From contig OX597827.1 of NCBI GenBank assembly GCA_951406725.2, positions 39,432,001-39,496,000 on the forward strand: a stretch of DNA of 64,000 nt, given 5' to 3'. The position numbers and the translations under genes were made by a program. The notes beneath the pieces were generated by a model. The model was not told where the DNA came from. It worked only from the letters and a program-made list of their open reading frames with translations, and ran no database searches. Shown piece after piece: positions 10,759 to 49,202 of this stretch (its first letter is position 1; each line of letters begins with the position of its first letter). Source of the DNA: Octopus vulgaris (taxonomy: Eukaryota).

Positions 10759-10889
10759 TTTATGGGAATGGCGTCCACAAGTTTTCCATCCTACCAATAC
10801 TCTTGTACACTTCAGCTGCACCTTTCCTCCCCATGGATTACACTAGACTCCTCTGTTGATGAGAAATCGATCCAATACACCACGACATT

Positions 10890-11093
10890 TGAAGTTTTTG
10901 AAGTTTTTGCACTTTTTAAAAACTTTTTTGTACTTTCTGCTTTTTCCTATTGTTGTTTCTTACCCACTACATATTCTTTATTTTCTCTCCTCGAAATGTT
11001 AAAGACTTTTTCACTTCCCGAGTGTTAAACTAATACATCTGTTTGTTGTCTACACCACCTGTCTTCGTCTTTTGTTTTTTTGTGAATTCTCCA
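10890..11093 (+). repeat. pLTR-like repeat with HHR core deleted
   Basis: Inverted copy at 13316-13523; homologous to 13548-13722 but missing 40 bp that span the HHR core. Confidence 0.75.
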
Positions 11094-12269: not shown

Positions 12270-13241
12270 CAGGTCATTAAGAATGAAATGTCTGTTATGC
12301 ACCAAGTTTGACAGTTGTTAATTCTAATGTTTTATCCTGACAATTCTTTGTTTTACAATATTGAAGAGTTACATCATCACTTTTTGAAATGCAATTCATA
12401 GTGCCTGATTATGTTGTGAGTTTTCTCTTGTAAATCAATTTTTGTGAACCCATAGATAGATAAAAAAAAATTCGTGTTGTTTATGAATATGAGTTCTGTC
12501 GTGGAAACAGTGCATCCCAGACAGCTTGAAACATCAATGTGGTGTTTGGTGAAGATGTGACAAATGAGTGCACTGTATGACGATGGTTTGAGAAGTTCCG
12601 GTCTGGTGACTTTTCTCTTGAAAATCAGTCCCATGGTAGACCTGAGACCAAGGGTGATAATTATGAGCTGGGAACTGTAGTGGAAGCGGATACATCTCAA
12701 ACTAGGCTAGAGTTAGCAGCAAGGTTTGATGTTTCGATTCCAACTTTATTGGATCATCTGAAACAAATCAGTTAGGTAAAGAAGCTGGACAAGTGGGTAC
12801 TGCATGAACTGAACAAGCATCAAATGACACGTTGTCTTGAAACTTGCTGTTCTTTGCTGTCATGGCATAAAAGCGAACCATTTTTGCATTTTTGCATCGT
12901 ATTGTTATGTGTGATGGAAAATGGATTCTTTTCAACAATAGCAAGCGTTCTGCATGGCAGTTGGGTAGAGATGAAGTGCCAAAACACAACCCAAAAAAGA
13001 AGAATATTCACCAAAAAATGCAATTGTGTCTGTTTGGTGGTCCAGTGCTGGTGTCATCCACTACAGCTTCAAGAGATCTGGTAAGTCAATTACAGCAGAG
13101 GTATACATCAACCAACTGGATGAAATGATGAGTGAACTTGCAATTAAACAACTGAGATTGGTCAATAGAGAAAGGCCAATTCTCTTGCATGACAATGCTC
13201 GACAACATGTTGCACAAAGAACACTACTCGAGTTACAGGAA
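12270..13241 (+). mobile_element. Decayed mariner transposon (Hsmar1/SETMAR-like transposase), 3'-truncated at (CA)n
   Basis: RWFEKFRSGDFSLENQSHGRP, KLDKWVLHEL, RIVMCDGKWILFNN, SVWWSSAGVIHY, ILLHDNARQH across frameshifted ORFs 12824-13084, 12892-13128 and 13026-13241. Confidence 0.92.
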
Positions 13242-13260
13242 CACACACACACACACACAT

Positions 13261-13315
<55 letters not shown>

Positions 13316-13317
<2 letters not shown>

Positions 13318-13722
13318 GAGAATTCACGAAAAAAAAAACCAAAAGACGAAGACAGGTGGTGTAGACAACAAACAAATGTATTAGTTTAACACTTGGGAAG
13401 TGAAAAATCTTTAACATTTCGAGGAGAGAAAATAAAGAATATGTAGTGGGTAAGAAACAACAATAGGAAAAAGCAGAAAGTACAAAAAAGTTTTTAAAAA
13501 GTGCAAAAAGTTCATAAACTTCATATGTGTGTATATAGGTCGATAGCCACTACACATTCTTTATTTTCTCTCCTTGTTTCTTTCTGTGTTCCTTTCTGTG
13601 GAAGAGCATAGGCTCGAAACATTAAAGACTTTTTCACTTCCCGAGCATTATACTAATACATCTGTTTGTTGTCTACACCATCTGTCTTAATCTTTTGGGT
13701 TTTTTTTTATGAATTGTCCCCC
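13316..13722. mobile_element. Inverted pair of pLTR-like repeats between microsatellites
   Basis: 13316-13450 (-) is inverted relative to 13548-13722 (+); the latter holds an HHR. Confidence 0.75.
13592..13627 (+). ncRNA. Minimal hammerhead, variant core CUGUGGA
   Basis: cuuu CUGUGGA A gagc auag gcuc GAAAC AUU aaag: stems I and II pair perfectly. Confidence 0.7.
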
Positions 13723-17563: not shown

Positions 17564-18586
17564 GGCAACCATACTGTGAGGTGAACTCAAAATAATTATT
17601 AACTGAAATTATAACCCTAACGAACGAAAAAAAAAAATTAATCATCAGTGATAAAGAACTTGTTCTTAGAGAAGAAAAAGTAGGAACTTCCGTAATTACA
17701 ATCAACCAAAAATTAAGTTTAATTATGCAGTGAGCGGACAGAATGCGTCTGATTTTTGGCAGACATGCTGACCACATCGGACAACAGTTTAGTCCTCTTT
17801 AATGAAACATTCTATCACTCTCTCCCTCTACATGACTATATTTATATAATATTTAAATTTAATTTTTTGCTGATAGAAATTTTGGTAATGTTTCCTTTGT
17901 CTTTCTTTGATCATAAAAGGGAAAGACTTCCGCCCATCTCCCCACCCCCATTTCCTCCCAAATTTGTTTATTTTTGTAATTATTTTGCCAAAAAAATCCC
18001 CGTTTTCGGATACGAAGGTTCCGGAAAATTGCCAAAAATCGGCATCGTGAAATCTCACCCACCTTTCCCCACCAACTTCTTCAATTTTGACTTTTTTCCC
18101 CAACAGTAACCCTAACCTTAAAACCCTAACACTAAAACCCTAACCCTAAAACCGTAACCGTAACCCTAAAACCCTAACCCTAACCCTAAAACCGTAACCA
18201 TAAGTACAGAAATGTTTTGAAATTTTTGTCCGAATCATGTCCGTATTTTCTGCATATTTATAAAAAAAATTCTTAAAAAAAATTTTACAAAGATTTTTGG
18301 AAATTTTTTTCAGAATCCTAATCTCCGTATTTTCCCGCATATTTTGAAAAACATTATTGTGAAAAAAGTAAAAAATGAAGGAGGTGGGGTGGTAATTTAG
18401 AAATGTCGATTTTAAACAATTTTTTTTGCAGATTCGTATTCCCCGTAGCCGAAAAGGGGGGTTTGTATAAAAAAATAAAAATCTTTTTAAAGGGTGATTT
18501 TTTTGTGGGGGAACGGGCTTGCCTATAAAAGTTACAATTTCAATTAGTTAAAAATATTTTCGGTTCACCACGTTAAATATAGTACC
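17564..18586. mobile_element. ~1-kb non-autonomous DNA element with imperfect terminal IRs and internal telomere-like repeats
   Basis: ggtgaactcaaaata (17580-17594) vs tattttcggttcacc (18555-18569); TAACCC/TAAAACCC array at 18108-18200; no TSD found. Confidence 0.5.
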
Positions 18587-37303: not shown

Positions 37304-37474
37304 CATAAATATAGACGGAAGCGCGGCTGTGTGATAAGAAGCTTGCTTCCCAACCACATGGTTCCAGGTTCAGTCCCACAGCATAGTTTTTGTGCAAGCA
37401 TCTTCTACTATAGCCTTGGACTGACTAAAACCTTGTGAATGGATTTGGTACATGGAAACTGAAAGAAGCCCATA

Positions 37475-37522
<48 letters not shown>

Positions 37523-37611
37523 CAGTCCTATATTTAAGAGATGAGGAATTATGTACATTATTTACATTATTTACATTTGACTGATATTTATCCTCATCTT
37601 GTTTGTTGTTT

Positions 37612-37655
37612 ACACAACGTTTCAGCTGATATACCCTCCAGCTTTCATCAGGTGT
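37612..37655 (-). ncRNA. Minimal hammerhead ribozyme, intact core
   Basis: Minus strand: acac CUGAUGA A agcug gaggguauau cagcu GAAAC GUU gugu; palindromic stem III AACGUU. Confidence 0.88.
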
Positions 37656-37719
37656 CTTGGGGAAATTTCGAACCTAGATTCTCATTCCTATGATATTTTT
37701 CAATGTTATCATCATCATC

Positions 37720-37761
<42 letters not shown>

Positions 37762-37918
37762 ATACTGCCTGGAATCGAACTCGGAATCTTGGGGTTAGTA
37801 GCCTGCACTCTTAACCACTATGCCATGTGCTCGTGGGCATATGGCATAGTGGTTAATAATAATAATAACATCAAAAGATACCTTAGGAATGAGAACCCAG
37901 GTTTGAAATTTCCCCAAG

Positions 37919-37962
37919 ACACCTGATGAAGGCTGGAGAGTATATCAGCCGAAACATTTTGT
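37919..37962 (+). ncRNA. Minimal hammerhead ribozyme, decayed at stem III/I
   Basis: acac CUGAUGA A ggcug gagaguauau cagcc GAAAC AUU uugu. Confidence 0.8.
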
Positions 37963-38018
37963 AAACAACAAACAAGATGAGGACAAATATCCGTCAAATG
38001 TAAATAATGTAAATAATG

Positions 38019-38067
<49 letters not shown>

Positions 38068-38414
38068 TATATATATATGTGTGTGTGTGCCTTTGTGTCT
38101 GTGTCCACCTCTATCATTGCTTAACAACCAGTGTTGGTGTGTTTGCATCTCTACAACTTAGCAGTTCAGCAAAAGCGATCGATAGAATAAGTACCAGACT
38201 TAAAAAATAAATACTGGGGTCGATTCATTGGACAAAAAAATTGAAACTGGTGCCCCAGCATGGCCTCAGTCTAATGACTGAAACAAGTAAAAGGTAAAAG
38301 ACGTGTGTAAGTATGTGGGCATGTGTGTACGTCTGTGTGCACATGTGTGTGTAAGTGTGTCTGTGTACATGTTTGTGTGTGTGTGTGCGTGCGCACATGT
38401 TTGTGTGTGTGTGT

Positions 38415-40924: not shown

Positions 40925-41661
40925 CTTACATACATACATATATACATGCATACATACAAACATACAAACATACATACATACATACATACATATATACATA
41001 CATACATACATACATATATACATGCATACATACAAACATACATACATATATACATTCATACATACAAACATACAAACATACATACATACATACATACATA
41101 CAAACATACATACATACATATATACGTCACACACAGTCTATGAAAATTATCAAAAATACCCACCTACAACCTGTTATCACAACCACAAAAATGACCAACA
41201 GTTTGATAATACTATTTGAAAAGGACTCAAAATATCTGGTTGAAACTGTTTTTAGCCTCAAATCCCATTGGCTTAGTGTCATTTGGCAAGGAGTCAAGCC
41301 ATATTATTAAAGAGGCTTCCTAATCTGCCAATGTCTTATCATGGAGATGCAGCAAAGTGGGTGACGTCAGAGCAAAAATCCTTATTTACAGGACATATCT
41401 CATTGATTTAGTTGTTGCTTTTATTGTGGTTATTGGTTGATTTAAGTACATGTAGACACACACACATACACACACACGCACACACATACACATGCATATA
41501 TGACCAGTAGAGATCTTGGAAAGCCATATCTCAAATAAAGACTCAGCATACAATTATGTAGTGTGTGTATTTGTGTGTGTGTATGTATGTATGTATTTAT
41601 GTATGTATTTACATATGTATGTTTTATGTATGTACCCCCCTCTCTCTCTCTATATATATAT

Positions 41662-42020
41662 ATAATTATTATTATTTGAGGGAATAAAATCCAAAACTTA
41701 CAAGGAAAAAAATTCAATTTAGAAATACTAAATCAAATTTCACACAATATAATATATATATAAAAAATTAGAAAAACCCCACCTTTTATCAATTCAAAAT
41801 GAACAATTAAATTACACCATCTAGAAAATTACATATAATAGAAATATTAACATTAAAATATATACAAATTATACACATTATTATTTTTTTTTTGCAATTT
41901 ACTTAATCATTGACATTTTATTGTTATTTTAATGTTAATATTTCTATTATATGTAATTTTCTAGATGGTGTAATTTAATTGTTCATTTTGAATTGATAAA
42001 AGGTGTTTTTTTCTATTTTA
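41662..42020. repeat. AT-rich fold-back unit between (TA)n tracts
   Basis: Perfect 81-bp inverted arms 41780-41860 / 41925-42005; the left part is related to 49220-49290. Confidence 0.85.
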
Positions 42021-48279: not shown

Positions 48280-49202
48280 CTTTGAGCTGCATTTTCATGT
48301 TGGGGAAGAGATGGAAGTGTGCTGGTGCTAAATCTGGAAAATAGGGTGGGCACAGAAGCAATACCATGTTGTTTTTGGTGAGAAACTCACGAGTGAAGGG
48401 AGCTTAGTGACAAGAGTGCATTGTCATCATAAAGAATACAGACGTTAGGGTTGACTGCGTGGACCCATACGACAGACCAAAAGCATCAGCAATGTTGTTG
48501 ATTGTCCTCAAACAATCCTCATTTACAAGCTGATTTTAAGCCGGCGAGCTGGCAGAAACTTTAGCCCACCGGGCAAAATGCTTAGCAGTATTTCGTCTGC
48601 CGCTACATTCAGAGTTCTAATTCCACCGAGGTTGACTTTGCCTTTCATTCTTTCAAGGTGGATTAAATAAGTACCAATTATGCACTGGAGTCGATATAAT
48701 CGACTTACTCTGTTTGTCTGTCCTTGTTTGTCCTCTCCGTGTGTAGCCTCTTGTGGGCAGTAAAGAAATAAGTTGATGAATTTTCTCCATATTTCTGGGG
48801 AAAACACTCATGACAGGTCTTCCAGATCGCTCACCATCTTCCAGAGAGATCCTTCTACATATGAAGCACCTATGCCACTCAAAACATTGTGTATGACCTA
48901 CTGCCTCATCACTATAAGCTTGCCAAAGCATGATCAATGTCTCTGTAGCAGACTTCCCAAGTTTTAATGCAAAATTTCATATTGGCTCTTTGTTCCAACT
49001 TCCTGTCCATGACAAAAGTTGCAGACTACAGCATATGTGATCACAAAAACACAAATTTCACAACTTGCAAAGTAAACACAGCAATGTCACTCAGCACAGT
49101 ACCACATGATGGTCACTGCTCTCACTGTGCATGCAGTCATGTGCTGCCATCTGTTGGTGCTCCACAGAACTAGTCTGGGAACTTTTTTATAGCACCTCAT
49201 AT
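48280..49202 (-). mobile_element. Internally deleted mariner with a SINE A insertion (48540-48772)
   Basis: MLWQAYSDEAVGHTQCFEWHR..SLEDGERSGRP; DDNA; PPYFPDLAPAHFHLFP (YSPDLAP motif); end tatgaggtgctataaaaaagttccc next to (TA)n. Confidence 0.85.

What the first reader, a model, noticed from the sequence alone, without database searches (positions are those of the whole stretch)
37522..38020. Fold-back ribozyme unit: inverted hammerheads with stem II covariation, nested in a SINE microsatellite
Seen: the left arm (-) has stem II agcug/cagcu and the right arm (+) has ggcug/cagcc, an A-U versus G-C compensatory pair. The unit is bounded by (TA)n and splits a family C SINE. Inference: transcription from either strand yields an HHR plus a long hairpin. 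The same (TA)n-bounded fold-back layout recurs at 13316-13722 and 41662-42020, suggesting microsatellite-targeted PLE-derived mini-elements.
Basis: partly seen in the sequence, partly recalled or inferred. Interest (0 to 1): 0.7.

Follow-up and report, generated by a model that had tools for sequence, protein, structure and literature searches.

The report
Penelope retrotransposon end with tRNA-derived head
This is a decayed head-to-head pair of short copies of the end-repeat of a Penelope-type jumping gene, an already described layout; the unusual part is a tRNA-derived leader built into that repeat, which likely acts as an RNA polymerase III promoter and would let a protein-coding element shed SINE-like copies of its own tip.

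Summary
The stem II 'covariation' is chance (A-U in 3 of 109 arms, p=0.39; the 3' base is a decaying CpG). The family does not target (TA)n (0 of 90 other tailed ends). The ends are not fixed, and the two 'recurrences' are unrelated families. The unit is a known Penelope-like (PLE) product: head-to-head in 57 of 103 loci, a 33-nt tail on one arm only in 54 of 57, target duplications in 32 of 56. I found the autonomous parent (RT plus GIY-YIG ORF); the arm is its pLTR and reads in frame into the ORF start. New: that pLTR begins with a tRNA-derived head (A and B boxes), present after all 24 complete ORF ends; only 3 of 60 headed short arms extend upstream of it; and the 2.6-kb element nearly lacks T4+ runs (suggestive only). 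Pol III transcription is inferred, not shown. Family RNA is read-through with an A-to-I-like excess. This scan noted the same element and reading before on other DNA (four unreviewed notes).

The parts
37326..37479 (+). 5' part of the host SINE (older, unrelated family)
   Evidence: 72-83% matches to other window copies
37480..37520 (.). (TA)20, part of the host SINE's internal microsatellite; insertion site, any target duplication is hidden in it
37521..37553 (-). 33-nt PLE 'tail', on this arm only; in parent copies it runs in frame into the ORF
37554..37718 (-). Left arm: pLTR body of the PLE
37612..37655 (-). Minimal type I hammerhead motif, intact core, 6-bp stem II, 4-bp stem I, palindromic loop III
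37719..37759 (-). (AAT)n linker of the pLTR, variable in length between copies
37760..37836 (-). tRNA-derived head; A box about 37815-37825, B box about 37771-37782
   Evidence: box consensus recalled
37811..37856 (.). Palindromic junction: 5' end of the head plus an inverted 22-nt copy of it
37856..38020 (+). Right arm: second pLTR body, tail-less, most of its head deleted
37919..37962 (+). Degenerate hammerhead motif (loop III palindrome and one stem I pair lost)
38021..38078 (.). (AT)n, rest of the host microsatellite
38080..38300 (+). 3' part of the host SINE
   Evidence: 68-75% matches to other window copies

Best explanation
The unit is one old insertion of two short, head-to-head copies of the terminal repeat (pLTR) of a Penelope-like retrotransposon, and the tRNA-derived head at the start of that pLTR likely works as an internal RNA polymerase III promoter. 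Shown: the parent element is ORF (RT, then GIY-YIG) - about 30 nt - tRNA-like head - (AAT)n - hammerhead body - tail, and head-body-tail also stands in front of the ORF and reads into it. Inferred steps: (1) transcription starts about 8-14 nt before the A box and yields RNAs that begin at the head; (2) the element's RT/endonuclease nicks AT-rich DNA and starts reverse transcription at two internal sites about 33 nt apart, as shown in vitro for PAc, giving one tailed and one tail-less end; (3) the two strands join head-to-head by fold-back priming or by twin priming, leaving an 8-14 bp target duplication; (4) here the target happened to be a (TA)n tract in an older SINE. The copy has since decayed neutrally; when such pairs are read through inside longer transcripts they would form duplex RNA that is A-to-I edited, with the hammerhead buried rather than active.
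For: Layout: 57 of 103 loci head-to-head, 1 tail-to-tail, 6 with a direct neighbour; exactly one tail in 54 of 57; shared flank word of 8 nt or more in 32 of 56 pairs against 62 of 3080 cross-paired controls. Parent: ORF directly upstream of the head in L016, L025, L059, L062, L064, L072, L074, L184; of 29 loci picked by ORF alone, all 24 whose match reaches the ORF end carry the head next to it; body and tail continue in frame into the ORF start and lie in front of it in most of 30 ORF-start loci, with heads at position 1 and 3 in L270 and L274. Both arms of a pair share the subfamily variant at core position N7 in 41 of 44 pairs, as expected from one template. Head: scores 57 against two genomic tRNA-Arg genes, shuffles 20+-4. 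5' ends: of 60 arms with an A box in 88 loci not picked by head, 3 continue into the parent's 3' UTR; by BLAST 4 of 88 head-bearing arms continue, 49 stop between -14 and +9, 35 stop further inside. T4+ runs: 0.40 per kb over 96.7 kb of copies against 2.29 expected from composition; 1.3-9.1 per kb in 11 other PLE ORF stretches of this genome. RNA: A>G at 13-15 and T>C at 9-12 places against 2 and 1 in 163 genomic arms, while C>T and G>A match; A>G 24-26 and T>C 19-22 against 9 and 4 in contigs of run X19. Literature: PMC3846280, PMC8557442, PMC11167929, PMC4209133.
Against: No direct evidence of Pol III use: neither lay showed a place where many molecules begin or end, at the head or at the cleavage site, and 67-82% of laid reads run on into unlike sequence (three runs of one study, apparently unstranded, the head masked). 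The T-run deficit is not significant against codon-preserving shuffles of a 445-codon stretch (P 0.13-0.15), G4+ runs are absent too, and an order-2 Markov model expects only 1.4. The head is not called as a tRNA by ARAGORN or Rfam, and only 7 tRNA isotypes were available for comparison. A native 5-bp palindrome at the head's 5' edge could set the boundary without any promoter. Many 'unique' flanks are short inverted remnants, so truly single copies are few (about 8). Pfam GIY-YIG did not hit the endonuclease stretch and RVT_1 hit weakly, E 0.002. Editing signal is family-level, from other individuals; contigs drop rare variants, and one A>C change is also RNA-only. All loci are best-scoring hits, not a random sample.
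Confidence: 0.68

Rival explanations
1. The tRNA-derived piece is a passenger (for example a captured SINE head) in the PLE's 3' UTR. The element is transcribed by Pol II, and short copies end at the head because reverse transcription stalls or folds back at the small native palindrome and tRNA-like structure there.
For: Native palindrome at the boundary; palindromic junctions read as self-priming in Adineta PLEs (PMC3846280); 35 of 88 arms stop inside the head, so truncation is common; RNA seen is read-through; TATA/Inr-like Pol II motifs are reported in other pLTRs.
Against: Some non-inverted copies with unique flanks also start at head positions 1-7 (L012, L024, L165, L171, L173, L180, L183); upstream pLTRs start at the head too (L270, L274); low T4+ density over the whole element.
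Confidence: 0.25
2. The tRNA-like piece is a processing signal: RNase P or a similar enzyme cuts a longer transcript at tRNA position +1 and so makes the 5' end.
For: 5' ends cluster near the position equivalent to tRNA +1.
Against: Acceptor and T stems are imperfect by inspection; no tRNA call; many ends lie several bases upstream of +1.
Confidence: 0.05
3. One reading: a fixed fold-back ribozyme mini-element that moves as a unit, targets (TA)n and keeps stem II by selection.
For: Inverted layout is frequent; this copy lies in (TA)n; within-pair divergence is slightly below between-locus divergence (0.083 against 0.089, p=0.035).
Against: Junctions vary by locus; 0 of 90 (TA)n flanks; no covariation; this locus's arms differ by 11.8%; right hammerhead degenerate.
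Confidence: 0.02

Closest known systems
Penelope/Poseidon-type PLEs: Pen2a_Av of Adineta (PMC3846280, passages read) and PAc of Anolis (PMC11167929, passages and second half of main text read)
   Same: pLTR overlapping the ORF start, inverted upstream pLTR, 31-40 nt tail on one end, 8-10 bp target duplication, palindromic junction, hammerhead in the pLTR, AT-rich targets.
   Different: Those pLTRs are described with TATA/Inr-like motifs or an unspecified promoter; no tRNA-derived head is mentioned in the passages read ('tRNA' occurs 0 times in PMC3846280). Here short pLTR-only copies far outnumber ORF copies.
Minimal hammerheads of metazoan PLEs (PMC4209133, parts 1-2 of 4 read)
   Same: Long stem II, short stem I, bulged base after position 9, G10.1-C11.1 pair, palindromic loop III; paired motifs on opposite strands 100-700 bp apart are already reported there.
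   Different: None in the motif; activity not tested here.
Schistosoma Pol III SINE-like hammerhead repeats (Sm-alpha; seen only through review PMC6765202, passages)
   Same: Pol III-type promoter followed by a hammerhead.
   Different: Described as non-autonomous and often tandem; here the head is part of an RT-coding element and copies show PLE tails and inversions.
TRIMp3: Helenus, Ajax, Cassandra (PMC10886601, abstract and passages)
   Same: Small-RNA-derived Pol III promoter inside a terminal repeat.
   Different: Those are non-autonomous LTR elements with PBS/PPT and 4-5 bp duplications; this is a PLE and the head is in the protein-coding parent.
Naiad PLEs (PMC8557442, passages)
   Same: Inverted 5'-truncated copies and tail.
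   Different: Naiads prefer (TA)n, have an N-terminal endonuclease and lack canonical hammerheads; this family does not target (TA)n.

Membership tests
Penelope-like element (EN+) | Single ORF with PLE-type RT followed by GIY-YIG endonuclease | tested here: met
   L025 RT stretch 32% to a Neptune-type ORF, E 6e-22; relatives carry PF00078 and PF26215; GIY-YIG-type motif read at the ORF end (motif recalled), although Pfam GIY-YIG gave no hit. All copies seen are broken; longest open stretch 569 aa among 150.
Penelope-like element (EN+) | pLTR at the 3' end that repeats the ORF start | tested here: met
Penelope-like element (EN+) | Inverted 5'-truncated copy and a 30-40 bp tail on one end | tested here: met
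   57 of 103 inverted; one tail in 54 of 57
Penelope-like element (EN+) | Short target-site duplication | tested here: met
   32 of 56 against 62 of 3080; not readable at this locus because of (TA)n
Penelope/Poseidon clade | RT groups with Penelope/Poseidon rather than Neptune, Nematis or Naiad | tested here: inconclusive
   No reference sequences or tree. It lacks the CxxC motif before GIY-YIG that PMC8557442 gives for Neptune/Nematis and that L110 has, is 26-32% identical to L110, and has a C-terminal endonuclease.
Minimal type I hammerhead | Core, stems I and II, bulge, palindromic loop III | tested here: met
   Left arm complete, right arm degenerate; core intact in 72 of 88 ungapped arms, all features in 36. 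No Rfam match.
Minimal type I hammerhead | Self-cleavage | not testable with these tools
   No read pile-up at the predicted site; one copy, L043, starts exactly there.
tRNA-derived SINE | tRNA-derived head with A and B boxes | tested here: met
tRNA-derived SINE | Pol III transcription from the head | tested here: inconclusive
   5' boundary and T-run deficit for; no start pile-up and weak shuffle test against
tRNA-derived SINE | Separate non-autonomous family sharing only a 3' end with its partner | tested here: not met
   The head is part of the ORF-bearing element in 24 of 24 complete ORF ends
Non-LTR retrozyme / Sm-alpha type | Head-to-tail tandem hammerhead repeats | tested here: not met
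   Direct neighbour in 6 of 103 loci
Non-LTR retrozyme / Sm-alpha type | Circular or monomeric cleaved RNAs | not testable with these tools
   Needs RNase R or small-RNA libraries
Foldback/MITE DNA transposon | Symmetric fixed terminal inverted repeats and fixed-length duplication | tested here: not met
   Asymmetric tail, variable centre, duplications of 8-14 nt
Microsatellite-targeted PLE | Insertion bias for (TA)n | tested here: not met
   0 of 90; positive control 16 of 24

The most novel reading that the evidence does not exclude
An autonomous, protein-coding Penelope retrotransposon that has switched to RNA polymerase III: the captured tRNA-derived promoter in the upstream pLTR drives the whole 2.6-kb RT/endonuclease unit, which has been purged of T-run terminators, and the same promoter in the downstream pLTR spawns tens of thousands of SINE-like copies, so that the element is its own SINE.
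Probability: 0.27. Interest if true: 0.82.

Novelty: new variant of a known kind. Interest (0 to 1): 0.5.

Why it matters
The fold-back with inverted hammerheads is standard PLE anatomy and needs no new element class. The tRNA-derived head inside the pLTR of the coding parent is what stands out: it would give a direct route from an autonomous retrotransposon to a SINE-like family without a separate partner, extend SINE-like biology to PLE machinery, and, if Pol III reads the ORF, pose a testable question of how such an RNA is translated. Frequent head-to-head pairs would also supply many duplex substrates for RNA editing in this animal (an octopus, inferred). Nine paper searches listed no report of a tRNA-headed pLTR, but Repbase, Dfam and most subscription papers were not searchable.

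Tried and rejected
Rfam scans: no hammerhead or tRNA among the rows shown (one search shows 150 of 332), only microsatellite-driven miRNA hits. ARAGORN on the window: 0 genes. GIY-YIG family search returned Neptune-type PLEs; none of 30 loci and none of 20 longer stretches ends in this pLTR; L126:3-133 is a neighbouring insertion. Peptide search of the body found no long open frame among 150; the only longer database protein is an Octopus sinensis model that includes the repeat. My first reading, a separate tRNA-SINE with a PLE partner, was dropped. Run search: no RNA holder listed. Lays showed no start or end pile-ups. Local folds of the two hammerheads did not give the ribozyme fold as minimum, as expected for minimal motifs. 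No excess of copies starting at the cleavage site was seen among tail-selected loci (small sample). Rows dropped before counts: duplicates L031, L061, L075, L078, L079, L160; the window's own locus L001 was left out of flank and duplication counts. Pfam scan of 31 of 67 window ORFs found only mariner pieces, so gene context is unknown. No supplements were read.

Full report
Observation. The unit lies in a (TA)n tract that joins the two halves of an older SINE; four other window copies of that SINE have a microsatellite at the same place. The 502-nt region folds at -260 kcal/mol, z -29. Rfam gives no hammerhead match, but the motif fits the minimal PLE hammerheads of PMC4209133. The left motif is complete; the right one has lost its loop III palindrome and one stem I pair.

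Covariation. Among 109 arms the pair is G-C 71, G-U 26, A-C 5, A-U 3, other 4; Fisher p=0.39. The 3' C is in a CpG and is changed in 27% of arms; CpG sites average 16.5% change against 3.9% elsewhere. The A-U pair is two independent decay events.

Family. The window lies in a 2.8-Gb genome, an octopus by inference. A peptide search had 39,123 first-look candidates, a rough sign of tens of thousands of arms. In 103 loci picked by body, tail, head or peptide, 57 are head-to-head, 1 tail-to-tail, 6 have a direct neighbour; 54 of 57 pairs carry the 33-nt tail on exactly one arm; 32 of 56 share a flank word of 8-14 nt against 62 of 3080 cross-paired controls; inner junctions vary. These are the features given for PLEs in PMC3846280 and PMC8557442; PMC11167929 ties the tail to two internal RT start sites. 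Arms of a pair share a subfamily variant in 41 of 44 cases.

Targeting. (TA)n follows 0 of 90 other tailed ends (background 2.9% of 6152 30-mers), any microsatellite 3 of 90 (background 9.5%); both-side (TA)n in 0 of 56 other pairs. The same kind of search finds (TA)n at 16 of 24 copies of the 13316 family, so the tool is not blind to it. That family had an inverted partner in 0 of 24 other loci; the 41662 family in 7 of 19, with TA after 17 of 19, about half of it a short internal tract. Neither is related in sequence to this unit.

Parent element. L025 holds a broken RT plus endonuclease frame that ends about 30 nt before the head; L016, L059, L062, L064, L072, L074 and L184 share that junction. 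Of 29 loci picked by the RT alone, 24 reach the ORF end and all 24 carry the head there; the other 5 break off earlier (L218 and L222 may be one duplicated copy). In L248 and L249 body and tail run in frame into the ORF start, and most of 30 ORF-start loci have pLTR sequence in front, some from the head on. So head, (AAT)n, hammerhead body and tail are the pLTR. Copies differ from the column majority by about 7% and none of 150 has a whole open frame: the family looks inactive. Clade assignment to Penelope/Poseidon rests on motifs, not a tree.

The head. It aligns to genomic tRNA-Arg genes at score 57 against 20+-4 for shuffles, with other isotypes at 28-46; A and B boxes are in tRNA spacing (box consensus recalled). 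It is not called as a tRNA. In 88 loci not picked by head, 4 of 88 head-bearing arms extend into the parent, 49 stop between -14 and +9 and 35 stop inside; by an A-box-anchored count 3 of 60 extend. T4+ runs, the Pol III stop signal (established knowledge), occur at 0.40 per kb in 96.7 kb of copies against 2.29 expected, and not at all in the majority state; 11 other PLE stretches have 1.3-9.1 per kb, two short stretches of another LINE type 0 and 1.7 per kb. Against this, codon-preserving shuffles give P 0.13-0.15 and G4+ runs are also absent. Pol III use is therefore likely for the short copies and only possible for the whole element.

RNA. Three raw RNA runs of one study lay thousands of reads on both strands; 67-82% run on into unlike sequence and no start or end pile-up appears. 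A>G and T>C places exceed those in genomic arms (13-15 and 9-12 against 2 and 1) and in contigs of run X19 (24-26 and 19-22 against 9 and 4), while CpG changes are similar. This fits A-to-I editing of duplexes but is family-level, from other individuals, and private variants of expressed copies contribute. On either strand the antisense arm is made first, so the single hammerhead would be paired off (inference).

Known and new. The layout is known. Paper searches (listings only, apart from the papers named) showed no tRNA-headed pLTR; closest are Schistosoma Pol III hammerhead repeats (PMC6765202) and TRIMp3 (PMC10886601). Passages of PMC4758252 and PMC8967140 add nothing on it; the 1994 octopus SINE paper and Repbase were not seen. 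After I had reached this reading, one search showed four unreviewed notes of this scan with the same conclusion on other DNA; they are not independent support, and one gave me the lead to PMC3846280.

Verdict. Observation partly confirmed, interpretation partly supported. A new variant of a known kind; interest 0.5.

Noticed in passing
window 13316-13722 and 10866-11093: A second repeat family, (TA)n-biased (16 of 24; microsatellite 20 of 24), with a hammerhead-like motif whose core mostly reads CUGUGGA instead of CUGANGA; one copy (L210) has the canonical core. No parent ORF found next to it.
   Followed up: partly
window 41652-42019; L119-L121, L129, L298-L312: A third, younger family (97-100% copies), about 80% like the ends of a Neptune-type PLE; longer copies carry their own hammerhead upstream and a roughly 110-nt optional extension.
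   Followed up: partly
L110:745-3090 and about 20 other places: Young Neptune-type PLE with an open 781-aa frame and a U3-A8 hammerhead variant like that in PMC4209133.
   Followed up: partly
L269, L273, L292, L280-L285: Internally deleted pLTR-short ORF start-pLTR derivatives of the family, some with shared breakpoints (120-127, 159, 233 nt into the ORF), possibly amplified as mini-elements.
   Followed up: no
L007, L021, L046, L018, L027, L041: The (AAT)n linker of the pLTR abuts 3' ends of other retroelements (LINE-like ORF ends and SINEs), suggesting it is a secondary target.
   Followed up: no
family alignment, core position N7: A subfamily differs at N7, the free position of the hammerhead core (26 of 110 arms), linked to one other variant; other core positions vary by 7% or less. 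One event, so only a hint of selection on source elements.
   Followed up: partly
L043:1501-1595: One copy begins exactly at the first base after the predicted cleavage site.
   Followed up: partly
window 12975-13361 and 48656-48976: Mariner transposase fragments (PF01359, PF17906).
   Followed up: no
window 18107-18203: Short interstitial telomere-like (TAACCC)n array.
   Followed up: no
P0001: An Octopus sinensis protein model includes part of this pLTR's translated body at 89% identity; exonisation or annotation artefact.
   Followed up: no
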